From Tubiluchus corallicola (taxonomy: Eukaryota > Animalia > Priapulida), in NCBI GenBank assembly GCA_030141605.1, contig JAQGDQ010001441.1, positions 1-41,061 of the forward strand: a DNA stretch of 41,061 bases, written 5' to 3'. The notes under the pieces were generated by a model. The model saw nothing but the letters and a program-made list of their open reading frames with translations, made no database searches and was not told the origin of the DNA. The translations under genes were made by a program, and so were the position numbers. Shown piece by piece: positions 1 through 37,170 of this stretch. How positions within the stretch are numbered: position 1 is the stretch's first letter; the number at the start of each line of letters is the position of its first letter.

Positions 1-698
1 TGCTACTGCACTACACTACACTAAACTGCACTACACTACACTAAACTGCACTACACTACACTACACTACACTACACTACACTACACTACACTACACTACA
101 CCACACCACACCACACCACACCACACAACACAACACAACACAGCACCACACCACACTACGCTACGCTATGCTACACTACTGCACCACTACACTACTACAC
201 TACACTACACTACACTACACTACACTACACTACACTACACTACACTACACTACACTACACTACACTACACTACACTACTATGCTATGCTATGCTATGCTA
301 CTGCACTACACTACACTACACTAAACTACACTACACTACACTACACTACACCACACCACACCACACCACACCACACCACACCACACCACACCACACCACA
401 CAACGCCACACCACGCCATGCCACGCCACGCCATACCACACTACACTACACTACACTACACTACACTACACTACACTACACTACACTACACTACATTACA
501 CTACACTACACTACACTACACTACACTACACTACACTACACTACACTACACTACACTACACTACACTACACTACACTACACCACACCACACCACACCACA
601 CGACACCACACCACACCACACCACACCACACTACACTACACCACACCATGCCACACAACACAACACAACACAACACCACACCACACAACACTACACTA
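1..698. repeat. Compound pentanucleotide microsatellite (CTACA)n/(CCACA)n/(CAACA)n, runs off the window start
   Basis: Directly visible alternating blocks of CTACA, CCACA, CAACA and CTATG units; the overlapping ORFs (HYTTL repeats) are translations of the repeat. Confidence 0.97.
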
Positions 699-1077
699 TA
701 GTAGTACATTATTTTTAACACATTTTTCTTTACTTTGGTACAAAAATGCATGGACGCTATACTTAGACACGCATCTCGTCTCGAGTAAGTATTTAACATG
801 TTGCAAACACGATGTGATATAGACTTTGCACTGAGGAATTGTGCTAAAATTCGATTCACATGTTTTGCTGAAAAACTGCTCTGCTGCCTTTTTCGTAGTT
901 CCTCTTACTACCCATTAGCTTATATTTTGTGACTCAGGATTTTCTTATGGATATTTTATTAACAATAGTTGCATTACATGATTGCCTTTTCTGCCATTAG
1001 TTTTTTGAAACGTGTAAGTAGCTTAAAATGAAAGCATGATTATATTTTCACAAACAAAGAGTGTGCATTCAGTCATA

Positions 1078-1088
1078 TGTGTGTGTGC

Positions 1089-1122
<34 letters not shown>
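1078..1122. repeat. (TG)n microsatellite
   Basis: Visible dinucleotide run with two CG interruptions. Confidence 0.95.
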
Positions 1123-1124
<2 letters not shown>

Positions 1125-1208
1125 TGCCAGTGATCAAAACTCGAGCGAACGTTTTGCGCTTGTCAGCGAATTTTCGGAATGTATATTACGACTGTTGGAC
1201 TCACCATC

Positions 1209-1224
1209 CAGATGGCGCCATCTG
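1209..1224. promoter_or_regulatory. Perfect 16-bp palindrome CAGATGGCGCCATCTG (CTCF/YY1-like core on both strands)
   Basis: Palindrome seen directly. AGATGGCGC resembles the CTCF core and GCCATCT the YY1 core. It lies upstream of canonical GTAAGT donors at 1488 and 1735. Function is inferred. Confidence 0.4.
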
Positions 1225-1903
1225 CACTGAACAAACATTAATGTGTCAACTTACAGGTTCAAAATCTCCCGTTGCTCGTGCCGTACTATTGTAAAAAAGA
1301 TCTTGAACACACAGCTGGTTTATGTAGTATTTAACGTGTATTGCTTTGCCAATGTGCATTGTACGTATTTGTGCAAATAAAACTGAATTGAATTGTTCAA
1401 AGTCTCCCATTGCTCGTGCCGTTGAAGAAAAGACCTTGAACACACGTGCGCGTGAAGTGTATTATAGCAGTTGTTAAGTCCAGTCTGGTAAGTCTATCGC
1501 TAATGGCCGCTTGACTATATTGTAGCATTATTAAGTTTACAGATATACGCTTTCAATAAACCAATGGAAGATGAAATATTTTAGTATGTTATCATGTATT
1601 TTATATGTTTTTAGTTAATGATGGTTATTCTATGCTCATCATAGTGTGGAAACTGTGTAGAACTGTTACAGTGGCTGTGAACGGGACAATTTCCAGTGTG
1701 TTAAGTCTTCTGCTGGTACGTACTCGACTATTTCGTAAGTTTATTAAATTCATAGATTCACAGTTTGAGAAGACGAATTGAATGTGAAACGTATTAGCAA
1801 CTTATCATGTATTTTACCTTTTTACAATTCTGATTATTCTGTGGAAGCTGTGCAGTGTGTAGCCTGCATGTGGTCTATGGCGGTGCTACTTTCAGTCTAT
1901 TAA

Positions 1904-2418
1904 AGCACAAGAAAACCCTTCATGAACATAAAGCTTAAAAAATTCGCTGAAATTTATATCACTTACATACTGCCTTTTTGCATGCACGACTTCAATCGGC
2001 AGTCACGCTGTATAAATCATGTAAATTTAAACTCCCGGGATGACCGTTACACGCAGCCATTTTCACGACAGGTCATTTGAAACGAGTTTAGATAACATTT
2101 TGTAAAGTTTGAAAAAATAATCAGAGCATTCGTAGCGCACAAGTCACTAACTAAATAAAATTTTAAATTACTGTATCTCGTCAATAAAATTCAAAATACG
2201 TTTTTTGGTTAGTGAGTGGTGCACCCTGGGGGTGAGTCAGCAACATTTCACCAATTGGTGAAAACATTTTAAATTATTAATAATTTTCTTTTCTAGTTAC
2301 ATAAGTCTTTCTAGCAGTTAAACGAAAATCTAAGTAATATAGATTTGCACGAAAGTCTTTTGAAATATAATTTAGCATTGCCTTTTGTTCCCTTGATTTA
2401 CGTTTCGTACATGACGTA
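1904..2418 (-). mobile_element. Truncated Kolobok-like non-autonomous DNA transposon (family A), inverted relative to 8768-9443
   Basis: Reverse complement aligns by eye with ~8930-9443 along its whole length; outer end TTAA|AGCACAAGAAAACCC (TTAA at 1900-1903). TTAA target and AG..CT termini are Kolobok hallmarks. Confidence 0.8.
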
Positions 2419-2677
2419 TTGAACAATTGAAGATGAAGTATTTACCATGTCATCATGCATTTTATGTTTTCAGTTAATGCTGGCCACTCCGTGTTCAGCG
2501 TAGTGCGAGAGCTGTGTCACTGTACAACGCCGGAAACAGCACAATCAGTTTTGTTCGGTGGATGCCCCGGATTAAGTTCAATTGTTCATCTAGTCTGTTG
2601 TTCATAATCGACTTCTGTTAGAAGAGAAAGCATCACAGAAGACAGCAAAAATGGTTAGATATAATAATAATAATAAT

Positions 2678-2862
2678 AACTAGCAAAGGCCCCGCAAAAA
2701 ATTTTGAGTATAAATACACTTATCATCAATAATACGCGAACATCCTACACAGTCCTCTCTTATAACGCAAAGCCAGCAGCAGCTTTTACTGAATTAAAGT
2801 TATGGGCAGTTTTTGGAGGTTTTTCACCCCCCCGTTCCTCCCGGTGTGCCCGATTCGCAAAA
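2678..2862 (+). mobile_element. Internally deleted interspersed repeat (family D, possibly Helentron-like), inserted in (AAT)n
   Basis: AAAGGCCCCGCAAAA and CAGCAGC..CTTTTACTGAA.TAAAGTTAT.GGCAG are shared with 34176-34530; flanked by AAT runs. Superfamily call is tentative. Confidence 0.5.
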
Positions 2863-3415
2863 TATAATAATAATAATAATAATAACAAAACAACAGCAAC
2901 AGTTATTGTAATATCAGTTATTGTACTAATGGAAAGCTGTTGTCTTCGTAACTCTATAGTTAGAGAGAGAGAGAGAGAGAAAGACGAGAGAGAGAAAGAG
3001 AGAAAAGAGAAAGACACAGAGAGAGAGACACATGAAGAAACAAACCTACAGTTACATAAGTACACAGCATTCATTTCAGTTTGGAGGAAAAAATATCTCT
3101 TATATGTACATGTTCTAAACCTGGTCGTTCACTAGATCTCGACTCCATCCACCTATAGCAACATACCCCACAGGTGTGACCTTAGTTCAGAAATTGTAGA
3201 AGACTGTCGTAATTTAAACTTGAGAGATTTATTCCCTCAAAAGCACAACTATCGGATAATTAAACATGTGCTGCCATCTACAATTAAACTTGCTTGGTTT
3301 TGTTTTGTCATTACATGCAGTATCACAATTAATGCATGTAAAAGGTCATAAATTACTGTCATGGGGTCTGAAGGCATAGATACTACTTGGGTTGATTTTG
3401 CCATGCCTTGTTATC

Positions 3416-3988
3416 TAGGGTCACCATACGTTCGGGTTTCCCCGGACTCGTCCTGTTTTTGGGCTGGTTTTCAAAAAACCGGCAGTTTCTGTGGGTTTTG
3501 CGTCAATCTGTAAGTATGTACGGACATTGCCAACTGCAGAGGCGCATAGCAGTACGAGACAAAGAAAAGCTCATTAATTTTCAATACAAGATGTTGCTAA
3601 CATCTCAAAATGTAACCCTTGTAAAAGCTTTGTGTACATATTTACTGAACAAAAGTAAGCGATGCACGCATCACTGTCACATGACTCGCACCGTGGTCGA
3701 TACTCGGTCTTCGGAAAAGTATTCTTGGTCTCAGCCTCTGGCTCAGTCAAGTTCAAGTGTAACTGTTTCTGAGAGACAAGAAGAAGCAGGCGACTGACAG
3801 TTGCAGTGTGTTAATGTTTTTTGCAGTATAGCCATTTGGTATTACTATTAGAATACATGTAGGCCTATTTGTATAATTTGCATTTTATTTTGCATTGTTT
3901 TAATACACCCTAGACTAGTCGTTTTTGCCTACTTACAAGTGTACGAAAAAGTGTCCTCTTTTTCAACTCAGACAATATTTTAACCCTG
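3416..3988 (+). mobile_element. hAT (Blackjack/Tip100-like) MITE, copy 1
   Basis: Ends TAGGGTCACCATA ... TATTTTAACCCTG; 8-bp flanks TTGTTATC (3408-3415) / TTGTTACC (3989-3996), 7/8 match; long homology to 7651-8166. Confidence 0.8.
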
Positions 3989-5129
3989 TTGTTACCTAGT
4001 AACTGTATTTTGATGTTAAATTCAGGTTGTGACCTTGGACTTTGCTGCTCAATCACCTGTACCTGCTGAGCTTTCCATATATGGTAGTGAAGACCGCTAG
4101 TGAGTTTCTCTAGCCAATCAGGTTAGCTCAGCAGGTGCTTGTGACTTTCAGGCCAGCCTGAGCTTTATTTGATTCTTGCTGGTTATTACTGCAATGCAAT
4201 ATCTTTCACATCTTTGGCACTGTGTGTTCGCGAGTCATGTGGCACAAGAATAAAAAAAAGATTAAAACATCAAAACACACAGCTAGAAGATACAGCTATG
4301 TAGCAGAATGTTTAAACACAGTGTACATAATGTTTGCACACTGTTTTTGTGCTTGCATAGCAAAATCTTCCGTAAGTCGGCAATTAAACTTTTCTAGTTA
4401 TTCACAGACCCTGAATCTCCATCTCATGAGGATCATTTTGTTACCAAGCTCATTGCTCTATGTTGTTTCTAACCTGAGATAATCCACGTTGAAGTTGAGG
4501 TGCAGGCTACGCACTGAAAAACATAATCTTGAGAAAATTACTGTTACAATTAGTCATTGTTTTTTGTCGCGTTTCTACAAAACACTTAGCACCCGCACGT
4601 AAGTGTGGTTGCTATGACTTTTACAAAAAACAAATTGAAGTTACATTTATATCCAGTAGATGGCTCGGTCTGACGAAGATCTGGTCTTGTCAACAAAAAA
4701 AACCTGAAGCTAAATGGCAGATTCCACGAGCTACAATTGGAGTTAGAAAATACAAGTTTTTTACAATTTCAGTACTAGTTTCTAGACAGAAAAGGGAGAA
4801 ATTAGATTTTTAGTATTTTTTGGACATTTTCCTGATAATTTGATGCTAGAATATAAAAGTTCAATATATTTAACATTTATTTCATAAAAAGTAAAAAATC
4901 GACATTTTACCAAACTTTTGGTGCTTTCTATCATAACGTAGTTTTAACTATGCCGACTTATTGACGGTTTTTGTTTGCAATCACACAAATTGGCAGATTG
5001 ATTTAGTATGTTTGTCATTTAGCACAGTTTTGACTGTACAAAACTTTCTGAGATCGACATTTGCACAATTTCATTTCATAGACTCGTTCCTACATTTTGA
5101 CGCACCTTGTAGACGATTTACATGGTAGC

Positions 5130-5268
5130 ATTATTATTATTATTGTTATTATTATTATTATTATTGTTATTATTATTATTGTTATTATTATTATTATTAT
5201 CATTATTATTATTGTTATTATTATTATTATTGTTATTATTATTGTTATTATTATTATTATTATTATAT
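5130..5268. repeat. Interrupted (TTA)n/(TTG) trinucleotide microsatellite in intron
   Basis: Directly visible; explains the poly-I/L/N ORFs. Confidence 0.95.
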
Positions 5269-5425
5269 TCTGCTCCAGATATAAAAATGCATGTTGAAAA
5301 TAGGTAAAAGATTTGACGCATATGATTGGAATGCTATGATGTTAGAGATGCACCAAAGTTTAATGCTTAACAAATCCATCTGTACTTACAGTTCAAAATT
5401 TAATTCTCTGTTTGCTTTTTTTCAG

Positions 5426-7312
5426 AATTTTGACGAGAGCAGCGAAGAAATACCAGACATCGACAAGCGAGACTTCCACGGTTTTACAAGACTTCACAGA
5501 GCTGTGAGTGATAACAATGCCGACGAGGTGAAGCAACTGATACAAGATGGCGCCAACGTCGACGTTGCAAGTGCATTCGGGTACACAGCATTAATGCTTG
5601 CAGCTGCCAGGGGGCGGGAACGCATTGCTAGTCTGCTGCTAGAAGCAGGTGCTGATCCTAATGTAACCAGATCAAATGGTTGGACGGCGCTGATGTTTGC
5701 AATCAGGAAGGCAAAGGGAGCCGGTTTTGCGCTAAGCTTAGCCAACTTGTTGCTAGAAGGAGGCGCTGATCCTAACTTGATGAACAGAAACGGTTGGACG
5801 GCGCTGCATTTAGCTGCCGACGAAGAAGTAACTCTGGATTCGGGAGTGGTGACTTCATTAGTGAAACATGGCGTTCTCATTGAGAAACAAGATGTTGAAG
5901 GGAAGACTGCAGTTCAGAAGTACATCGACATTGCAACAAACAAAACCCTGAACAAAGAACTACGAGAGACTATTGGCTATCTGCTAAAATCTCAGTACGT
6001 AACAGCCAATAAAATGCTCGACAACCGTGATCAGGTTACATCTAAAACGAGACGCAGGAATCTACAGCTAAAGAAAGACACAGATTGTAAATCCGTGCCA
6101 GAAGTACTTAGTCTCTACGGCATAGGACGTCTTCCACCGACTGATGACAATCATGTTATCAGAACAAAAATTGAGGCCTTTGCCGCCAGAGTATGTACTA
6201 AATTGCGAGAAATAGATGAAAGGTTTGATTCCTTTTACAAGCTTGTTGGCAGCAGCGCATGCGGAATCAAAGCCGGGTTACCGGATGAGTTCGATTTTTT
6301 CATCATCTTGAAAAGCTTATGTGAGGATCTGAATGTCGAAGAAACCGACGAAGCAGGATACGTAAAAATTACGTTAGGCGACAAAGCAATGAGAATGTTT
6401 CCCGAGTTTTTTGAAAAGGGTAGATTGCTTTCTGGCAACTTTAAGAGTTATTTCGTGACTCTTGTATGCCGGGCTATCAACGTTATTTTTACGGAAGACA
6501 CAGAAATAACGGAATCTTTTGATTTCATTGATGTGGAGTGGAACAAGGTGTGTACTTGTATTCACCTTTTGTACCACGGAGGCTGCTATGAATCTCTGGA
6601 CATTTCACTGGACATAACACCTGTCTTAGAAGTGCCAGAGAATCCACCCGGGATGCTGCAGTCACACTACACTGGTTCCGCTACTCCTTATCACCTTGTA
6701 TTTAAGCCGTGCCCAGGCGCAGGACAAAATCACTGTGCCATATCCATGGCCGTGCTCGAAAGTCAACTTGTTGCAAACATGAGCGAGCCAAAGAAAGAAG
6801 GAATAATTCTGACGAAAGCTTTGCTCGACGATTACCTTTATTGTCGGCAACCGGAAGCCATCGATAGCCTAAAGCAGGAAAATTCCGAGAAGGATTTCGT
6901 GCGCGTGTTTTCTACGCTTAAATTCCATCCCAACAATCTCATAGATTCCTACGTAGTGAAAACGGCTTCATTTCGTGAAGCCAGCTGCTATGAAGATGAC
7001 AATCACTGGAAAGACGACGAAGTCTTAAATCGAATTTTAGGCATACTCACCTACATTTCAGAATGCTGCAGTAAAAAGCACATGCCTCACCATCTTCTTG
7101 ATGGCGTGAACGTGCTCAAAGAACATGCCAATAAGAAAATCGATGGTGTGCCTCTTTTGGATTTGATGGACCTATGTGCGGACAGAATTGGCGCTCATGT
7201 GCGAAGCAACACTGTGCCAACTAACTTAGGCATTACAATTGAAAAAGAAATCTTGCTTGAAAAAGTCGGGAAACGGGATGAGTTTCTCTTTTCGTGGTAC
7301 ACGTACGAGCAG
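5426..7312 (+). CDS. Main exon of ankyrin-repeat + Mab-21/cGAS-like receptor (cGLR) nucleotidyltransferase
   Basis: Within ORF 5291-7339. Acceptor TTTTTTTCAG| at 5425 and donor CAG|GTATTT at 7313, both phase 0; 629 codons. Four to five ankyrin repeats (GFTRLH, GYTALM, GWTALM, GWTALH, GKTAVQ; ~5480-5920). NTase motif LVGSSACGIKAGLPDEFDFF (6242-6301), third acid in ISLDITP (6611), Mab-21 C-terminal motifs SYVVKTASF and CCSKKHMPHHLLDGVNVL (cf. human cGAS SYHVKTAFF and CLRTEKLENYFIPEFNLF). The ORF's first 45 codons are probably intronic; start exon not firmly located. Confidence 0.92.
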
Positions 7313-7650
7313 GTATTTTATAGATTCAATTCAATTTAATTCAATTCAAAAGGTTTATTTATCTCTAATATAATATCTAACATGATATAATAGTGGATGT
7401 GTTTTTATATGATCACGACCAATTACAGATTTGTTCAAAGTCGAATGAGTTATTTATTTGAGTCGTTCAGCTTTAAGACTTTCTTTTCAGGAATATTTGC
7501 TGTTTGCTATCACATCCAGTTTACATTCCTGCCACGAACAAGGAGTATTATCTTTGCTTACAAGGTTGCACGACTTGTACCTGGTGGTGCACAATCCAGT
7601 GTTAGACATCAAAATCTTGCTACAGGTTTGTGTTAGAGATGAGTGTTAAC

Positions 7651-9613: not shown

Positions 9614-9660
9614 GTGATGAATGCATACGATAGCAATGATGAAATTCGAGCCACTGCAAG
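9614..9660 (+). CDS. Predicted small internal exon of the ANK-cGLR gene (VMNAYDSNDEIRATA)
   Basis: Acceptor TTTTGTTTTAG|, donor AAG|GTATGA; phase 0 in and phase 2 out, compatible with both neighbouring exons; open frame. Confidence 0.65.
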
Positions 9661-9889: not shown

Positions 9890-10250
9890 CTGTTATAGGC
9901 ATCCAGTGCAAACTAAAAACTACTGTGCCAAAAATTTTAAACAAAATATACATTATAATGTTACACGCGTATTATAATAGACTATATACTATATATACAT
10001 ACAATTTAAAATGGACGTGGGTAAATAAAATTTGTGGATGAATAGATATTATCGTTTACGTATGTAGGGTTTTCAAAATGATTTAATGTATGTATTTTTA
10101 ATTTTGATTTGATTTCGTCGAAAGACTTGGTTTGTTTTAAATTTGATGGCAGGGTATTCCAAAGTTGAACTCCTTGTTTAGTGATAGAATTGTTGCCGTA
10201 TTTGTTAGTAGTGCGTGTTTGTTTAATATTGTCTGTTCTTGGTATAATAG
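9890..10250 (-). mobile_element. 5'-truncated LINE (CR1/L2/Crack-like) ORF2 C-terminus plus part of 3' UTR
   Basis: Peptide KYGNNSITKQGVQLWNTLPSNLKQ...FIYPRPF is homologous to the end of ORF 20074-20682; UTR motif CATCCAGTGCAAACTAAAAAC matches ~20961-20982 in reverse. Confidence 0.8.
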
Positions 10251-10822
10251 CACCCAAATAAAAAGAGAACAAAGTTAACAGCTTGCGTCTCAATGATGCA
10301 CCCAACACAACGACCATGTTGGCGAAACATGGTTCTTCTTTACTGCTTATGTTTCGATGCGCATTTGCATCATTCATATGAGCACATTCACCGGCCAGCT
10401 AGAGATAGAAATTAAACTTAAAACTAATGAACGCTACCCTATTACGTAGACTATGGAGTGCTCTGATGATGATGCAAATTAGCATCCAAATGGAAGCAAC
10501 AAAAAAGTACACACTTTGCTGTAAACAATAGCCTTTGTGTTTTGTGCAGTGTTGAAACTGAAACTGCTGACCAATCTTTTATTTACATTTTTGCTGTTCT
10601 ATTCGTCCAACTGTGACTGGATTATGGGAAATTGTAAAATGAGATAGCGGTTATTGATTTGTTGATACCAAACTTAACTGAAAGGAGGGAACATTTAACA
10701 AATTAAATTTTCAGATTCCTCTGGATTAATTGACGAACTGTTAGATTGAATTGGGATTTGCGATGATCCCGATGTAAATTGAAGATCAGATCGTTCTTCT
10801 CATACAGAGTCTAATGGTAATA

Positions 10823-11288: not shown

Positions 11289-11697
11289 TAATGATTTTGA
11301 TTGATTTTTTGACATTTCAGTGAGATACTGAAGTTTGCAATTAACTACCAAATCTGTCCTAGTGGCAACATTGATGAGTTGACTTCAGTAACTAAACGGT
11401 ATGAATTTTCCTATAGATCAAATAAAGCTAAATTATGACTAATAATTATCCACAATATACGTTATTACGATCATGGAATTTTTTTGGTTCAAATTACATC
11501 TATTGTAAATTGCTGATGCTTACTAGTGGTATGAATAATTCTTGTTAGTAAAAACATTTTAAAATAAGTAGTATATTTGGTTTTATAATATGCTTTTTTC
11601 AAACACTTTAATTTCCATTTTGTATTAATAATGTTGTTTTCTTTTGGAAAGTTCAATACTGATTTAAATACAACAGCATCTGCTTTCATCATTTCAG

Positions 11698-11764
11698 GAC
11701 AATTGCAACATCATTGCTGGAAATAGCGAAGAAGATTGAAACCAGCAGTTTTGTTACACACTAA
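11698..11764 (+). CDS. Predicted terminal coding exon of the ANK-cGLR gene (RTIATSLLEIAKKIETSSFVTH*)
   Basis: Acceptor TTTCATCATTTCAG|, phase 2 matches the 9660 donor; TAA at 11762-11764; AATAAA at 12549. Confidence 0.6.
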
Positions 11765-12546
11765 ATGCTACACTTTCCATGGCACTGACTTTATTGAAAC
11801 CAGCAGTTTTGTTTCACACTAAATGCAACACTTTCCACGGCACAGACTTTATTGAAACCAGCAGTTTTGTTTCACACTAAATACAACACTTTCCATGGCA
11901 CAGACTTCATTGAAACCAGCAGTTTTGTTTCACACTAAATGCAACACTCTCCATGGCACTGACTTTATTGAAACCAGCAGTTTTGTTTCACACTAAATGC
12001 AACACTTTCCATGGCACAGACTTCATTGAAACCAGCAGTTTTGTTTCACACTAAATGCAACACTTTCCATGACACAGACTTTATTGAAACCAGCAGTTTT
12101 GTTTCACACTAAATGCAACACTTTCCATGGCACAGACTTCATTGAAACCAGCAGTTTTGTTTCACACTAAATACAACACTTTCCATGGCACAGACTTCAT
12201 TGAAACCAGCAGTTTTGTTTCACACTAAATACAACACTTTCCATGGCACAGACTTCATTGAAACCAGCAGTTTTGTTTCACACTAAATGCAACACTTTCC
12301 ATGGCACAGACTTTATTGAAACCAGCAGTTTTGTTTCACACTAAATACAACACTTTCCATGGCACAGACTTCATTGAAACCAGCAGTTTTGTTTCACACT
12401 AAATGCAACACTTTCCATGGCACAGACTTCATTGAAACCAGCAGTTTTGTTTCACACTAAATGCAACACTTTCCATGACACAGACTTCATTGAAACCAGC
12501 AGTTTTGTTTCACACTAAATGCAACACTTTGCACGGCACAGGCTTC
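11735..12546 (+). repeat. Minisatellite, 14 x 58 bp (ATTGAAACCAGCAGTTTTGTTTCACACTAAATGCAACACTTTCCATGGCACAGACTTC)
   Basis: Unit starts at 11735, 11793, 11851 ... 12489; only a few substitutions per unit, no indels, no unique spacers. Confidence 0.97.
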
Positions 12547-12548
12547 AT

Positions 12549-16909: not shown

Positions 16910-18578
16910 AATTTAACTGTAGACGAAGTTTTGAATGTTGATTTGACTGTAGATGAAGTTTTTATTGTTGATTTGACTGTTAATGAACTTTTGAATGTTG
17001 ATTTGACTGTAGATGAAGTTTTTATTGTTGATTTGACTGTAGGTGAAGTTTTGATTGTGTATTTGACTGTAGATGAACTTTTGAATGTTGATTTGACTGT
17101 TAATGAAGTTTTGAATGTTGATTTGACTGTAGATGAAGTTTTTATTGTTGATTTGACTGTAGGTGAAGTTTTGATTGTGGATTTGACTGTAGATGACGTT
17201 TTGATTGTTGATTTGACTGTAGATGAAGTTTTGAATGTTGATTTGACTGTAGATGAAGTTTTGAATGTTGATTTAACTGTAGATGAAGTTTTGAATGTTG
17301 ATTTGACTGTAGATGAAGTTTTGATTGTTTATTTGACTGTAGATGAAGTTGTGATTGTTGATTTGACTGTAGATGAAGTTTTGATTGTCGATTTAACTGT
17401 AGACGAAGTTTTGATTGTTGATTTGACTGTAGATGAACTTTTGAATGTTGATTTGACTGTTAATGAAGTTTTGAATGTTGATTTGACTGTAGATGAAGTT
17501 TTTATTGTTGATTTGACTGTAGGTGAAGTTTTGATTGTGTATTTGACTGTAGATGAAGTTTTGAATGTTGATTTGACTGTTAATGAAGTTTTGAATGTTG
17601 ATTTGACTGTAGATGAAGTTTTTATTGTTGATTTGACTGTAGATGAACTTTTGAATGTTGATTTGACTGTTAATGAAGTTTTGAATGTTGATTTGACTGT
17701 AGATGAAGTTTTTATTGTTGATTTGACTGTAGGTGAAGTTTTGATTGTGGATTTGACTGTAGATGAAGTTTTGATTGTTGATTTGACTGTTGATGAAGTT
17801 TTGAATGTTGATTTGACTGTAGATGAAGTTTTGATTGTTGATTTAACTGTAGATGAAGTTTTGAATGTTGATTTGACTGTAGATGAAGTTTTGATTGTTT
17901 ATTTGACTGTAGATGAAGTTTTTGTTGTTGATTTGACTGTAGGTGAAGTTTTGATTGTGTATTTGACTGTAGATGAACTTTTGAATGTTGATTTGACTGT
18001 TAAAGAAGTTTTGAATGTTGATTTGACTGTAGATGAAGTTTTTATTGTTGATTTGACTGTAGGTGAAGTTTTGATTGTTGATTTGACTGTAGATGAAGTT
18101 TTGAATGTTGATTTGACTGTAGATGAAGTTTTGATTGTTTATTTGACTGTAGATGAAGTTTTGAATGTTGATTTGACTGTAGATGAAGTTTTTATTGTTG
18201 ATTTGACTGTAGGTGAAGTTTTGATTGTGGATTTGACTGTAGATGAAGTTTTGATTGTTGATTTGACTGTTGATGAAGTTTTGAATGTTGATTTGACTGT
18301 AGATGAAGTTTTGATTGTTGATTTAACTGTAGATGAAGTTTTGAGTGTTGATTTGACTGTAGATGAAGTTTTGATTGTTTATTTGACTGTAGATGAAGTT
18401 TTTATTGTTGATTTGACTGTAGGTGAAGTTTTGATTGTGTATTTGACTGTAGATGAACTTTTGAATGTTGATTTGACTGTTAATGAAGTTTTGAATGTTG
18501 ATTTGACTGTAGATGAAGTTTTTATTGTTGATTTGACTGTAGGTGAAGTTTTGATTGTTGATTTGACTGTAGATGAAA
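16910..18578 (+). repeat. Minisatellite, ~56 x 30 bp (GATTTGACTGTAGATGAAGTTTTGAWTGTT) with recurring variant blocks
   Basis: Exact 30-bp period (two units per 60-nt line); flanked by ~58-bp direct repeats at 16821-16878 and 18592-18649. Confidence 0.97.
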
Positions 18579-20059
18579 TTTTGGCACCTTTGTACTTTAG
18601 AAAAGGTACAGCAGTGAGTCAAACGCCCCCTGGGCTGTAATTTGCACGAGTAAAGATTTTGAAGTTTATTTATTTAAGATCAAGCAACAAGGTGCGAAAA
18701 TATTCAATGTTCACACAGCAATTGAATAATTATTGTTCAATAATATCGTCAGATATACTTACTAAAATCGATCCAATTAAAAGCAACAATCCAATCACTA
18801 TAAAAAAGCAAAGATGATGTTTAGCAAGTTTTCACTCGAACAGCAAGTTATTTCAAATTATGTAATTTGAATGGCACGTATTTAACTAATTATTTTAAAA
18901 GTAAGTCCTGTTAGTAGTTGTGCATAATTTTGCATACATTCTTATTTAAAAACTTTCATAGTCTTATTATTTAACATTCTTATTTAATAATTTATAATTG
19001 TGATTATTAAAAAGCATAATAGATTAAATAAGATAAAAAATACATTTAAACTTTTTATTGACAAAGTTGTGTACGAAAAGTTGCAATTTAATGCAGTTAA
19101 TTTTGCAAAATTGAGAACTGTGTCTTGTTTTTTTGCAAAATGTTTGCTGCTACGGTCCCAGTTGTCTTAAACTCCGCATACAGCATTGATTTTTGATGCT
19201 ACTTCAAGGTCATCATATCCATATTTATTGGAATTGCGCGTTAAATTGCTATCAACTAAACTGCGTATTTTCTTGATTGCAAAACGGTTTAATCTGCAAC
19301 TTATAGACGTAATTTATGACAGGTTGAGCATTTTTCGTGAGAATACAACATACACCGACAGTACATAGCAAGAGCTCTTGTCCAGAAACCCGAGGTAATG
19401 AGCCGGTTCTGTGAGCGTGCGAAAAACATGCACACTGACTGGACAGTCAGCAGGGAATGACTGGCATTTTGTTTGACCTCATTTGATTACTCGTCCTTCC
19501 ATAAACACCAAGTAGGCACCGGGCAGACATGCAATTGTGCAACTAAAAGATGTGCAACTGAAAAGTGCAGCAATTTTGCTGGTGCACCAAAATTCGGCCT
19601 ACAGACATGTAATTTTAAATTGTGCAACTGACGCTATATGAGCCATGTTTCAAAGGCAAATGCGACTGACGCACAGGGTACTGGAGTGTGGAAACTGGAG
19701 AGTGACTCACTAGGTGGCGTAGGCAGCAGAAATGTGTTGACTGGTCTCCAGTTTCTGAATTTGTCATTGAATAACTTAAAGGAGGGTGGCAAGGACGTGA
19801 TTTAAATTCATTAATTCGTTATTCTTTCCCTCTTTCGTTTGGTTAATGGTGCCTTTTCCTAAGGCAGTGCCCCTTCTTATGTGTTTAACTATTACGTTTG
19901 GTTAAAAGTTGCTCAATTAAAAACTACGTGTCTGCGCATGCTCAGTTACGGTCCCATGCAGACATGCAAATTTCAGGTACACTAAAATTGAAAATCGCAA
20001 ATCTGCGTGAGACTTAAAACTCTGAGCCCAGAGGCAACTTTTAGATGCGCAGTTTTTAT

Positions 20060-21090
20060 AAATACACAACAAAATGGCATTAAGCACGGCATACATACGC
20101 CAAACCAGAGGCCATCTAACCAAGAAAACAAAAATTCTCATCTACAAAAGTCTAATATTACCACATTATCTATATGGTTGCACTTTACTTCAAAACGTTA
20201 AAAATGAAAACTTTAGAAAACTAAATACAATGCAAAACTACTCACTAAGATTAATTCATAGCTATTCTAATAAAACTGCTAAACAACATGCTGCTTCTGC
20301 AACAAGCTTAAGAACGTCCACAAAAATACCAATATTAGAAGCCTATCGAGATTATAAAACTCTGATATTTCTTTATAAATATATCAATAAACTGAGCATT
20401 CCATTTATAAACAATCCCTTAACATTCATTCCTGATACCACTTTAAACACTAGAACACACAGTTTAAAGCAAATTACAGTAAACAATAAATTTGGAAATA
20501 ACTCTATATCAAAACAGGCCATACATTTGTGGAACTTACTGCCCAGTGAAATAAAACAAATAGAAATTCTCCACCACTTTAAAAAGAAATTAAAAGAATG
20601 TCAATATAACAGGTTTCAACTTCCACATTGTGCATCAGATACTAATCACACAGACTTAACTTTCATCTACCCCCGCCCCTGACTCCATAAAACGATTAAA
20701 AATGATTTTGTTTTAAAATTATGTAATGTAATACGTGTTATGTTAGTTTTGTAATGTCAAATGTATAAAGTGTAAATGTAATGAGTGAAATTTATGTAAT
20801 GTGAAGCATGTTTCTGTGAATTGTGTCATGTCAAGTGTAAAATATGTCATGTAAAATTTAATGTACTTTTGTAATATTGTTTTGTAAACATATTTTAATA
20901 TGGTGTTTATAAATATGTTCATTTATTGTACATAATTGGGCCTTAGTTTTAAACTTTAGTGTTTTTAGTCTGCACTGGACGCATTTGTTTTGAACAGTGT
21001 TGTTATTTTAACATTACGCTGAGGCTTACTCAATTTTATTATAACGAGTGAACCATTTTAAAGACAAATAAAGAATTAATATAATATAAT
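20060..21090 (+). mobile_element. 5'-truncated LINE (CR1/L2/Crack-like): ORF2 post-RT C-terminus (20074-20682) and 3' UTR
   Basis: Motifs IYKSLILPHYLYG, LNTMQNYSLRLI, NTRT, FGNNSI..QAIHLWNLLPSEIK...FKKKLK are typical of the CR1-group ORF2 tail; AT-rich UTR ends AATAAA plus short AT repeats; second copy at ~9890-10250. Confidence 0.85.
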
Positions 21091-27525: not shown

Positions 27526-28210
27526 ATATTATATTTTCATATAAACCACTGATCTTCATTTCTGCAATATGTAAAAAAATAGAAAGGCAAAGGTGACTGA
27601 CATTGGATAATTTAGTTAGATTGTTACATAGTTTAGTCCATTCATAAATATCAGTGAATAAATAAAAATAAAAATTAACAGAAGTAAACTTACATCGTTG
27701 CGGCAAATATCTAATGAAAAATTTCACTAGCTTGCACAAGACACATGTTCACTCACACAACAGAACAGCATAAATGAAAAACGTAACCAGGTCAATGCCC
27801 ACGCTTTGAACTTTCTGGCTAGATGGAGCCACCTTGGCTACAAAATTAAAATTTATTAAGTCAGGTTCACACTGGCCTTAATACCTACATATGTTTAAAA
27901 GGTGTTAAAATTCACTTTGCCGTGGTTCAAAATGGAGTAGAGTACAAAAGATTATATTGTTTACCCTTAAACAGCTAAGAAACAAAATAGAAAATAATTT
28001 GATCGAATTTAGAATTTATTATTGGCATATTGATTATATTTCAATGATATAAGATTTTATTGACGATTTACAATCAATGCAATTACAATTACAAGCTACA
28101 AAACATTACATAAACATTGTAATACATTACAATAAAGAACAGAACTACACTGACAAAACCCCACACATGGGGTATAATCGTGAACACAATATACAATAAA
28201 ACACAGTAAA

Positions 28211-28394
<184 letters not shown>

Positions 28395-30609: not shown

Positions 30610-31308
30610 TTAATCTTCGCAAACATAAACATTAAAGCACATTCTGGTTGCATTGCTATGTCCGCAGTACATCAGTCCTGTGTTGCACGGAGTTACACGC
30701 AGTATGTTGAATTCAATCGGTGGCTGGAAAATCGCAACAGTATCCTCGTTTGTATATGCCCAGGAAACGTAATCGCTCACCATATTCCTGGATTCTTCCC
30801 GGAAAGTGAAATGCTCCGGCTGGGTGACATCCCTCAACGTGTACACCTGAGCGCCATCTATTGGTTTCCGGAAATTTCCGTCTGTGCTACATCCGGCCGG
30901 GAAGACGATTCTGGACAGAAATCTTTGCTTGGTGAAAGTGAAGGCAAAAGCGTAGTGGAAGTAGCTCATGTGCTCCTTATATTTCGTGTAAAATGGCTCT
31001 AGATTGAATCCGGATTGTGGAGAACCCCACCAGTCCTCGCCTATATCCTCCGCTGATGATTGCACGTTTGTCGTCCCGTTGGGTAAACTGTACTGGTGGT
31101 AATAAAGGAGTTGGATGTTCATACAGTCTTTGCGACACTCTATTTCTTTCCTACATTGGTCTGCGTCGTACTTTGTTTCTTCGTCATCGTCGCTTATCAG
31201 TCCCCTTGCCTTCTTCTTTCCCTCGTATATGTAATTTCTGGAGCTGACTTTGACTGCCATCAGCATCGCCATCAAAACGCAGCAGAGGTATTTGAAAGTC
31301 GCTTCCAT
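30610..31308 (-). CDS. Secreted Cys-rich protein with a divergent discoidin/F5-8C (galactose-binding-like) domain; single coding exon
   Basis: Within the 280-codon ORF 30610-31452. The Met at 31308 begins a signal-like stretch (MEATFKYLCCVLMAMLMAVKVSS); an alternative Met is at 31404. FQPPIEFNILRVTP...RMCFNVYVC resembles the F5/8C C-terminus (PPI.ARYIRI.P...LR.ELYGC). The CDS is likely; the domain call is by eye only. Confidence 0.7.
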   Translation of the reverse strand: MEATFKYLCCVLMAMLMAVKVSSRNYIYEGKKKARGLISDDDEETKYDADQCRKEIECRKDCMNIQLLYYHQYSLPNGTTNVQSSAEDIGEDWWGSPQSGFNLEPFYTKYKEHMSYFHYAFAFTFTKQRFLSRIVFPAGCSTDGNFRKPIDGAQVYTLRDVTQPEHFTFREESRNMVSDYVSWAYTNEDTVAIFQPPIEFNILRVTPCNTGLMYCGHSNATRMCFNVYVCED

Positions 31309-31571
31309 TTTATGCAGAAAGTAACAAAGAACTTCCGTTTGCTTTAGAAGTTCAAGTGGCGCGTTCTGAGAACGCTGAACGAATTCATTGTTCTTTGAGG
31401 CCATTGTTTCTTTGGGAATAGGAATTTCTAAAGCAGACACTCGAAAAAACATAACAACGCGAATTCAGGTAATAGAGTTATAAGTAAAAAGGTCGGACGT
31501 TATAAGATCGCAGGAGAAAAAGGTCCCAGGTAAAAAAAATTACAGGCAAAAAGTCACACGAAAAAAGGAAA

Positions 31572-36015: not shown

Positions 36016-36221
36016 ATCAAAAGAAATTACTAAAACTACTAAACTAATTTCTTTTATGAGTTTCAAAAACTTATGGTACAAATAACGATAAGCTTCGAAT
36101 GTTTAATTTTATTTGTGCTGTTAAAGAACTGAATTGATTTGAGTCGCGTTTTGTGGACCTGATGGCTTTGTTTTTAGCACGCCCTGTATGCTCGCTTGTT
36201 CATCAAATTGTGTTACCGTAC

Positions 36222-37170
36222 CTGCTTAGTAAGTTGCAAAGTATTGACGTTCTTTCAGTCCTTTGTTTACGATCATTTTCCACTTTAGCAGTACCTTCTT
36301 TCTTAACATTCGATTCTTCTGTCTTACTTTTATCTTTGGAGTTTAAAATTACTTTTCTTAAGGCGACTTTGGGTTGCGATTTTCTTTTTTCAGACTTGTT
36401 AACTCTCTTGGCAGCTGCAGCTACAGCATTGGCTCTCCTTTTTTTAGTTGCAGCTTGGCAACTGGAACTTCCTTTGCCTTTTTTTGCTTCTGCTTTGGAA
36501 CTTCGTCTCGCAGCCGTAGTTGCAGACATAGATCTGTCTCTGATAGTCAATGTTCCAGACGTGGACCTTTCTTTTGCAGACATGGACCTTCCTTTTGCAG
36601 ACATGGACCTTCTTTTTACAGACATGGACCTTCCTTTTGCAGACATGGACATTCCTTTTACAGACTTGGATCTTCCTCTGGCAGTCATGAGAACAACGGC
36701 AGGCTTTCCTTCTTGAGCGGCAATTCTGGACCTCGATCTTCTAATGTTAGTAATAGAACTTCTTCTGTTGGGCACAGTTCTTCTTTGGGCGGCCATAATT
36801 CCAGACTTACGTTTTCCTCTCTTAGCTGAAGAAGTTGAAGATTTGCATCTTCCCCTGTTTGCAACAGCCTTGGATTTGGGTATTACCTTCTTAGATCCAA
36901 CCCTTGATCTGGATCTGAATTTGTTGGACGCGGCTGTAGACATGGACCTCCTTTTGTTACCTCCGGCTGTAAACTTTGATCCTCTTTTGCCAGACGCACT
37001 TTTGCTTTTGCCTTTGGAGAAGCGCTTACTTGATGATTTGAATCGTCTAGACACTGACCTTCCTCTTCTGCTAGATGACATTCCAGATGTGGATCTTCTT
37101 TTTGGTGATTTGCTTCTGTCATCAGTTCTCGTTGACTTTGCTCGGCCATATCTTCTACGCGACTGTGAAC
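36222..37170 (-). CDS. Main exon of Arg/Lys/Ser-rich protamine-like (sperm nuclear basic protein-like) protein
   Basis: The frame of ORF 36203-37081 stays open upstream to acceptor CATTTAAG| at 37171 (adds SQSRRRYGRAKSTRTDDRSKSPKRRSTSG). Very basic, RS/SR dipeptides, heptad RSMSAKG repeats (21 bp, ~36560-36680). Donor AG|GTACGG after 36222. Function inferred from composition. Confidence 0.8.

What the first reader, a model, noticed from the sequence alone, without database searches (positions are those of the whole stretch)
5426..7312. Ankyrin-fused cGAS-like receptor with intact catalytic triad and no zinc thumb
Seen: four to five ANK repeats, a basic linker (KTRRRNLQLKK), then GS-x11-EFD, a third Asp (ISLDITP) and SYVVKT. 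The segment after ISMAVLESQLV is short, with no cGAS H-x5-CC-x6-C zinc ribbon, and the common GSxxE reads GSSAC. Established: Mab-21/cGLR enzymes make cyclic dinucleotides that signal to STING, and ANK-fused forms are known from invertebrate surveys but are poorly characterised. Inference: an innate-immune sensor that may be gated by a protein ligand or by ANK autoinhibition rather than by DNA.
Basis: partly seen in the sequence, partly recalled or inferred. Interest (0 to 1): 0.8.

Follow-up and report, generated by a model that had tools for sequence, protein, structure and literature searches.

The report
Ankyrin-headed cGAS-like immune sensor gene
This animal gene joins ankyrin repeats to a cGAS-like enzyme domain that keeps its three catalytic acids, a pairing already catalogued in a priapulid worm and corals, and it likely works as an immune alarm enzyme that would be switched on by something other than DNA or RNA.

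Summary
5426-7312 is one large coding exon of a spliced animal gene; four more exons follow to a stop at 11764, and the first exon was not found. It encodes 4-5 ankyrin repeats plus a Mab-21/cGLR domain whose model (pLDDT 92.5) matches cGAS (Z 29) and keeps GS, E288, D290 and D396. The architecture is known: a clade-mate from Priapulus caudatus (28% identical) is in the cGLR catalogue of Li et al. 2023. What is distinctive: an acidic enzyme domain (pI 5.15; nucleic-acid sensors are above 8.5), a clade-specific WNKVC loop, a changed product pocket (cGAS R376 to A, S434 to D, aligned by motif), and a ~110-residue tail seen only here and in one ortholog. Best reading: a ligand-gated cyclic-dinucleotide synthase, trigger probably not nucleic acid, product perhaps not 2'3'-cGAMP. 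Activity, ligand, product and ankyrin role are untested. New member of a known kind.

The parts
5426..7312 (+). Large internal coding exon (629 codons): ankyrin repeats, linker and the whole cGLR enzyme domain
   Evidence: Open frame; AG before 5426 and GT after 7312; 76% identical to residues 22-658 of ortholog P0002
5468..5953 (+). Four clear and one degenerate ankyrin repeat (residues ~15-176)
   Evidence: Pfam Ank/Ank_2/Ank_4, E 1e-23 to 4e-20; five repeat starts
5954..6022 (+). Helix after the repeats (LNKELRETIGYLL), the best-conserved segment against the ortholog and recognisable across the clade
   Evidence: 22 of 23 residues identical to P0002; similar N-K-x-x-R/K...G-x-L pattern in alignment A1; helix 177-199 in the low-confidence single-sequence model
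6044..6076 (+). Basic linker KTRRRNLQLKK; shared with the ortholog, not a clade feature
   Evidence: 7 of the 9 other clade members have 0-2 K/R in the matching segment
6086..7228 (+). Mab-21/cGLR nucleotidyltransferase domain (spine helix, NTase core, helical bundle); acidic
   Evidence: AlphaFold2 pLDDT 92.5, pTM 0.91; cGAS 4k9b Z 29.4, rmsd 2.9 over 322 residues; Cv-cGLR1 8gjw Z 28.2; pI 5.15, net -18 for residues 233-600
6248..6295 (+). GS-x11-EFD: activation loop with catalytic E288 and D290
   Evidence: E288 acidic in 106 of 106 rows, D290 in 103 of 106
6539..6553 (+). WNKVC loop, the clade signature, where cGAS has GSPAV (register by eye)
   Evidence: 11 of 11 clade rows, 0 of the other 95 rows; 2 occurrences in the held text of Li et al. 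Table S1, both Priapulus caudatus
6611..6613 (+). Third catalytic acid D396
   Evidence: D in 104 of 106 rows; on strand E171-183 of the model, model residue 176
6737..6817 (+). Lid (A438 where cGAS has R376) and the 20-residue E445..K464 segment that lacks the zinc ribbon
   Evidence: R at this column in 69 of 106 rows but 1 of 11 clade rows; E..K span is 20 residues in 88 of 106 rows against 32 in human cGAS (counted by eye)
6944..6964 (+). DSYVVKT: D507 (cGAS S434), Y509 (cGAS Y436), K512
   Evidence: D507 in 11 of 11 clade rows, 13 of 106 overall; Y509 93 of 106; K512 92 of 106; aligned to SYHVKT of cGAS by HMMER
7491..7625 (+). Downstream exon, 45 codons, start of the C-terminal tail of unknown family
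   Evidence: 62% identical to P0002 656-702, E 7e-12; AG/GT, phase 0/0
9614..9660 (+). Downstream exon, 47 nt, tail
   Evidence: tblastn hit, weak alone, E 0.045; AG/GT, phase 0/2
11321..11398 (+). Downstream exon, 78 nt, tail
   Evidence: 89% identical, E 3e-9; AG/GT, phase 2/2
11698..11764 (+). Last coding exon with stop TAA at 11762-11764; its end lies in the first unit of a 58-bp tandem array
   Evidence: 79% identical over 19 residues, E 0.003

Best explanation
The gene encodes an ankyrin-repeat/cGAS-like receptor (ANK-cGLR) with a complete catalytic triad, which likely rests inactive until a non-nucleic-acid trigger, probably a protein engaged with help from the ankyrin repeats, switches it on to make a cyclic dinucleotide that would signal to STING-domain receptors. 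Shown: the exon structure, the domains, the cGAS fold of the model, conservation of GS/E288/D290/D396, the acidic domain and membership of a Priapulus-containing clade. Inferred: (1) catalytic competence, about 0.8; (2) ligand gating through the back face of the spine helix, as in other cGLRs; (3) a trigger that is not dsDNA or dsRNA, about 0.6; (4) a product other than 2'3'-cGAMP, about 0.5; (5) STING as receptor, about 0.7. Whether the ankyrin repeats capture the ligand or clamp the enzyme is open; I favour capture or scaffolding, because repeat number varies widely among clade members while the enzyme core does not.
For: Fold: Foldseek E 3e-14 to human cGAS; Z 26.5-29.4 for all 50 listed entries, all cGAS or Cv-cGLR1. 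Triad: GS plus three acids intact in 97 of 106 rows at 18-31% identity apart from the ortholog. Family: XP_014668761.1 (=P0005; 28% identical over 400 residues; same clade, SH-aLRT 99) is in Tables S1, S2 and S4 of PMC9980059. Trigger: that paper reports pI above 8.5 for nucleic-acid-sensing cGLRs and proposes non-nucleic-acid ligands for acidic ones such as Pd-cGLR, pI 5.0; this domain has pI 5.15, its ortholog 6.04, and the spine segment carries 6 K/R against 6 D/E. Product: of five cGAMP-contacting cGAS residues named in PMC10855445, K362, S378 and Y436 are kept while R376 is A438 and S434 is D507 (motif register by eye); the only one of 15 active cGLRs with no basic residue at the R376 position is Sp-cGLR1, which makes 3'3'-cUA. 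Receptor: P. caudatus is listed with 5 STING genes. Intact gene: downstream splice phases agree with the ortholog, which is encoded without interruption on a 2,728-nt contig.
Against: No activity, ligand or product was measured. None of the 15 active enzymes of the published screen has an ankyrin hit in Table S2, so the class has no proven member that I could find. The activation loop lacks the aromatic residue at GS+2 seen in 14 of 15 active enzymes. pI of a whole domain is not the charge of the ligand groove, which I could not compute; 4 of 11 clade members have pI 8.4-8.7, and a basic linker (pI 9.9) sits just before the spine helix. Two oyster enzymes keep the R376-position arginine and still make 2'3'-cUA, so that residue does not fix the product. 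STING was not checked in this genome. The 5' exon and its junction are unverified.
Confidence: 0.55

Rival explanations
1. It is a conventional dsRNA (or dsDNA) sensor like Sp-cGLR1 or Drosophila cGLR1; the basic linker supplies the positive surface and the ankyrin repeats only localise the enzyme or recruit partners.
For: 9 of 15 active cGLRs respond to nucleic acid without a zinc ribbon. KTRRRNLQLKK is kept in the ortholog and precedes the spine helix. Best sequence hit among solved structures is 8gjy, cGAS-like receptor 1 (E 7e-4), whose aligned stretches match the Sp-cGLR1 row.
Against: Enzyme domain net -18, spine segment neutral; the linker is not basic in 7 of 9 other clade members; 53 of 77 full-length relatives have pI under 7 and only 10 above 8.5.
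Confidence: 0.25
2. It is a nucleotide-binding scaffold or a non-cyclising transferase with a non-immune role, as the Mab21L proteins have in development.
For: The pocket is remodelled (A438, D507, WNKVC, no aromatic at GS+2). Most constructs in the published screen were inactive (15 active of 140). MAB21L1 (5eog) is the second sequence hit in the PDB.
Against: Triad kept in 97 of 106 rows; top structural matches are cGAS and Cv-cGLR1; MAB21L1 itself lacks the GS motif in the alignment; lineage-specific expansion (at least 5 P. caudatus paralogs) fits immune genes (inference).
Confidence: 0.13
3. This copy is a recently broken gene: its upstream exon is lost or joins out of frame.
For: No match to the ortholog's first 21 residues in bases 1-5425. 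The exon starts with N where the ortholog has E and stays open only if the upstream intron is phase 0; no laid contig covers 5426-5486.
Against: 1,887 bases without a stop, four intact downstream exons in matching phase, 71-96% identity to the ortholog in the folded parts. A short acidic first exon can lie outside a 41-kb window or diverge beyond recognition.
Confidence: 0.06

Closest known systems
Priapulus caudatus ANK-cGLRs XP_014668761.1 and XP_014666123.1 (Li et al. 2023, PMC9980059, Table S1); also XP_014675828.1, XP_014670921.1, XP_014661479.1
   Same: N-terminal ankyrin repeats, single cGLR domain, LVGS..K.GLPDEFD, WNKVC loop, IDSY..K, no zinc ribbon; one clade in the tree.
   Different: 26-29% identity only; C rather than N at GS+3; fewer repeats than most; basic linker; more acidic domain (5.15 against 6.8-8.7); a ~110-residue tail from four extra exons that they lack.
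Acidic cGLRs Pd-cGLR and Sp-cGLR2 (PMC9980059)
   Same: Acidic enzyme, no zinc ribbon, proposed non-nucleic-acid ligand; Pd-cGLR also lacks the GSxxE acid.
   Different: They have no ankyrin hit in Table S2, keep a basic residue at the R376 position, and make 2'3'-cGAMP.
Vertebrate cGAS (PDB 4k9b, 6ct9) and oyster Cv-cGLR1 (8gjw)
   Same: Same caged NTase fold, Z 28-29, rmsd 2.9-3.0; triad, K362, S378, Y436 and K439 equivalents kept.
   Different: 16-21% identity; no zinc ribbon; acidic rather than basic; R376 and S434 positions changed; ankyrin head and helical tail instead of cGAS's unstructured N-terminus.
Stylophora pistillata ANK- and death-domain-fused cGLRs (PMC9980059 Fig. 4C legend)
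   Same: Fusion of a cGLR core to protein-interaction repeats, proposed for protein or ligand binding.
   Different: Not compared in sequence here; whether the fusion arose once or several times was not tested.

Membership tests
cGLR (Li et al. 2023 criteria) | Three catalytic acids in [DE]h[DE]h ... h[DE]h after a GS motif | tested here: met
   G275 S276, E288, D290, D396
cGLR (Li et al. 2023 criteria) | Literal motif h[QT]GS x8-20 ... x50-90 ... | tested here: inconclusive
   The literal pattern fails (V before GS; 103 residues before the third acid), but it also fails for P0005, which the authors list, and only 1 of their 15 active enzymes has Q or T there (by eye); so it does not discriminate
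cGLR (Li et al. 2023 criteria) | Homology over both the NTase core and the C-terminal helix bundle | tested here: met
   Pfam Mab-21 280-448 (just under cut-off) and Mab-21_C 502-573; 28% over 400 residues to the listed P0005
cGLR (Li et al. 2023 criteria) | Predicted structural homology to cGAS/cGLR | tested here: met
   pLDDT 92.5; Z 29.4, rmsd 2.9, 322 residues aligned
cGLR (functional definition) | Ligand-triggered synthesis of a cyclic dinucleotide that activates STING | not testable with these tools
   Needs biochemistry; no genome was available to look for STING
ANK-cGLR architecture | Ankyrin repeats in the same polypeptide as the cGLR domain | tested here: met
   Both in one exon and one frame; 24 of the 30 best hits scanned carry ankyrin repeats
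Vertebrate-type cGAS | Zinc ribbon H-x5-CC-x6-C | tested here: not met
   Absent; E..K span 20 against 32 residues
Vertebrate-type cGAS | Basic enzyme domain (pI above 8.5) for dsDNA binding | tested here: not met
   pI 5.15, net -18; whole-domain value, surface not computed
Mab21L1/2 developmental proteins | High identity to MAB21L1 and a degenerate active site | tested here: not met
   Only a weak match to 5eog (E 0.002) and an intact GS/E/D/D

The most novel reading that the evidence does not exclude
A priapulid-type subfamily of ankyrin-headed cGLRs detects a pathogen or damage protein rather than nucleic acid, uses its remodelled pocket (WNKVC, A438, D507) to make a messenger other than 2'3'-cGAMP, and fires one-protein effectors (caspase-STING-STING and HEPN-STING-STING fusions noted, unreviewed, elsewhere in this genome): a CBASS-like sensor-to-effector circuit in an animal.
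Probability: 0.15. Interest if true: 0.8.

Novelty: new member of a known kind. Interest (0 to 1): 0.38.

Why it matters
The ligands of acidic and domain-fused cGLRs are a stated open question (PMC9980059, Discussion), and I found no characterised ankyrin-fused member (searches; listings only). This gene is a compact test case: few repeats, both domains in one exon, an expressed-looking ortholog and a sharply defined subfamily signature. If a protein trigger or a new messenger were shown, it would extend cGAS-type sensing beyond nucleic acids in animals. As it stands it adds one more sequence, a subfamily signature and an unexplained tail to a known catalogue.

Tried and rejected
Single-sequence fold of the whole exon: pLDDT 41, unusable beyond the repeats. 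Docking of the ankyrin region on the enzyme domain: no model was obtained, so autoinhibition is neither supported nor weakened. Expression of this copy: no RNA holder listed; run X2 laid only on repeats. Run X1 covers 5487-7239 with 2 differences and no gap, but may be the source sample, so it is not independent; it has no cover at 5426-5486. First exon: no convincing match by tblastn, local alignment or an ATG..GT scan; the in-frame ATG at 5291 runs through the polypyrimidine tract and is probably intronic; the acidic peptide near 2929-3059 comes from an (AG)n repeat. C-terminal tail: no Pfam family, no Atlas hit, only itself among 439 candidates of similar length, none among 114 shorter candidates, no match in the fetched proteins; longer proteins were not searched and the tail was not folded, so this is no proof of novelty. 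Idea that N373 of WNKVC equals the uracil-selecting Asn of CdnE: rejected, that residue lies in the lid helix (PMC10442399), which here corresponds to 438-445. Profile searches of the PDB with A1 and A2 were swamped by ankyrin hits (8gjy at E 2e-56). Searches for 'R376I' and 'N166' found no paper; the role of R376 in linkage choice is recalled (Kranzusch 2014, seen only as a reference line) and not relied on. No whole genome was available, so STING and copy number were not checked.

Full report
What is there. The window is repeat-rich animal DNA of 27-45% GC. Bases 5426-7312 read as 629 codons without a stop on the + strand and are bounded by a pyrimidine tract with AG and by GT, so the finding is one exon. 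The only close homolog among 5,419 candidates scored is P0002, 773 residues, 73% identical, from a 2,728-nt contig of an unnamed run. Laying it on the window gives four more exons, 7491-7625, 9614-9660, 11321-11398 and 11698-11764, with AG/GT ends and phases 0, 0, 2, 2 that keep the ortholog's frame. Because P0002 is encoded uninterrupted on a contig barely longer than its reading frame, it is probably a spliced transcript (inference). Its first 21 residues have no match upstream in the window, so the 5' exon is unlocated.

Domains. Pfam gives four ankyrin stretches, Mab-21_C above cut-off and Mab-21 just under it. A model of the enzyme part built on 106 sequences (the window plus 105 of the 125 hits; 20 short or very long hits left out) has pLDDT 92.5. 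It matches cGAS at E 3e-14 and at Z 29.4, rmsd 2.9 over 322 residues, with oyster Cv-cGLR1 at Z 28.2. The ESM Atlas agrees: first hit 0.96, ten of ten best hits Mab-21 families. G275, S276, K282, E288, D290, D396, E445 and K464 are each at least 90% invariant in the alignment, and 97 of 106 rows keep GS plus all three acids. Residue-level geometry of the triad could not be read from the model; its equivalence rests on motifs, strands and the global match.

Relatives. 24 of the 30 best hits scanned carry ankyrin repeats, and 78 of all 125 match the window's repeat region. Of the ten best hits four carry names, all Priapulus caudatus; more distant named hits are a clam and a coral (2 of 10 looked up). 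In a quick maximum-likelihood tree (90 of 106 rows, those with at least 250 aligned residues; SH-aLRT only) the window lies in an 11-row clade with support 99, all ankyrin-fused, holding the four Priapulus proteins. WNKVC marks 11 of 11 of these and 0 of the other 95 rows. In Table S1 of Li et al. (3,139 rows, cells cut at 400 characters) it occurs twice, both times in P. caudatus. The host is thus an animal whose nearest catalogued kin for this gene are priapulid; at under 30% identity that does not identify it.

What is known. Li et al. 2023 (PMC9980059; seen: passages, sections 6, 7 and 10, searches of supplements 1-5, part 1 of 8 and 15 rows of supplement 3; the supplementary figures were not readable and may bear on domain frequencies and surface charge) list about 3,000 cGLRs, 87% without extra domains, some with ankyrin or TPR repeats. 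XP_014668761.1, a member of this clade, is in their Tables S1, S2 (Ank_2) and S4; P. caudatus is given 2 cGLR and 5 STING genes. None of their 15 active enzymes has an ankyrin hit; whether ankyrin-fused proteins were among the inactive constructs I could not tell (the word does not occur in Table S3). Searches for a characterised ankyrin-fused cGLR (listings only) showed none.

The zinc ribbon is absent, but the E..K segment is 20 residues in 88 of 106 relatives, and by eye none of the 15 active invertebrate enzymes has the ribbon, the two dsDNA sensors included. C at GS+3 is rare, 5 of 106 against E in 84, yet 4 of 15 active enzymes have H, K, K or N there. Neither argues for or against activity or for a ligand. 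One loop feature does cut against easy activity: 14 of 15 active enzymes have an aromatic residue at GS+2, where this protein has A.

What is distinctive. First, charge: residues 233-600 have pI 5.15 and net -18, the ortholog 6.04; the spine segment has 6 K/R and 6 D/E. Li et al. report pI above 8.5 for nucleic-acid sensors and propose other ligands for acidic enzymes. Acidity is common in these relatives (53 of 77 under pI 7) but 4 of 11 clade members are at 8.4-8.7, and the basic linker may compensate. Second, the pocket: PMC10855445 (passages) names K362, R376, S378, S434 and Y436 as cGAMP contacts in human cGAS. By motif register they are K427, A438, S440, D507 and Y509. R376 is kept in 69 of 106 rows but 1 of 11 clade rows; D507 is in 11 of 11 clade rows and 13 of 106 overall. 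Sp-cGLR1, the one active enzyme without a basic residue at the R376 position, makes 3'3'-cUA. This hints at a different product; it does not predict one. Third, a tail of about 110 residues from four small exons, found only here and in P0002.

Mechanism. Established for the family: cGLRs rest inactive, bind a ligand on the back face, and make a cyclic dinucleotide for STING. Inferred here: the same cycle, with a non-nucleic-acid trigger engaged with help from the repeats (0.55 overall); rivals are a dsRNA/dsDNA sensor (0.25), a non-cyclising scaffold (0.13) and a broken copy (0.06). Earlier unreviewed notes on other pieces of this genome report caspase-STING-STING and HEPN-STING-STING genes; I did not test them and use them only in the novel case. 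A note on a flatworm ANK-cGLR array reached a similar filing; it is not independent evidence.

Verdict. Real, well supported, and a new member of a catalogued architecture, with a subfamily signature and an unexplained tail worth recording. Interest 0.38.

Noticed in passing
window 11735-12548: A 58-bp tandem array, 14 copies at 96% match, starts inside the last coding exon; each unit repeats the final codons and stop. The window's protein ends FVTH* where the ortholog continues for about ten more residues, so the array may have reshaped the C-terminus.
   Followed up: partly
window 6185-6288, run X1: Short contigs at 90-95% identity lie over the GS loop region; four of seven listed differences there are at third codon positions. 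This hints at one or more paralogs in that run.
   Followed up: no
window 30610-31452 (-): 280-codon ORF; from M49 it looks by eye like a secreted, cysteine-containing protein with a signal peptide. No Pfam family, no PDB hit better than E 0.7.
   Followed up: partly
window 36203-37081 (-): 292-codon ORF very rich in S, R and K, containing a 21-bp repeat (36556-36689); recalls protamine-like sperm proteins (from memory, untested). No Pfam family.
   Followed up: partly
window 10006-10377 (-) and 20074-20682 (+): Two related ORF fragments that look like the end of a non-LTR retrotransposon protein (resemblance recalled, not tested); the first lies in an intron of the gene.
   Followed up: no
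window 16911-18583, 5-698, 28207-28394: A 30-bp minisatellite of 56 copies, (ACTAC)n and (TAA)n arrays produce long spurious ORFs.
   Followed up: yes
P0014 (XP_060574718.1, Ruditapes philippinarum) and P0016: Proteins of about 2,260-2,290 residues with ankyrin repeats, a MYND finger and apparently two Mab-21 regions: a more elaborate cGLR architecture.
   Followed up: no
P0029 cluster: A 972-residue ANK-Mab-21 protein with 605 cluster members on contigs of 4-45 kb from ENA and Logan, far more abundant than any other hit.
   Followed up: no
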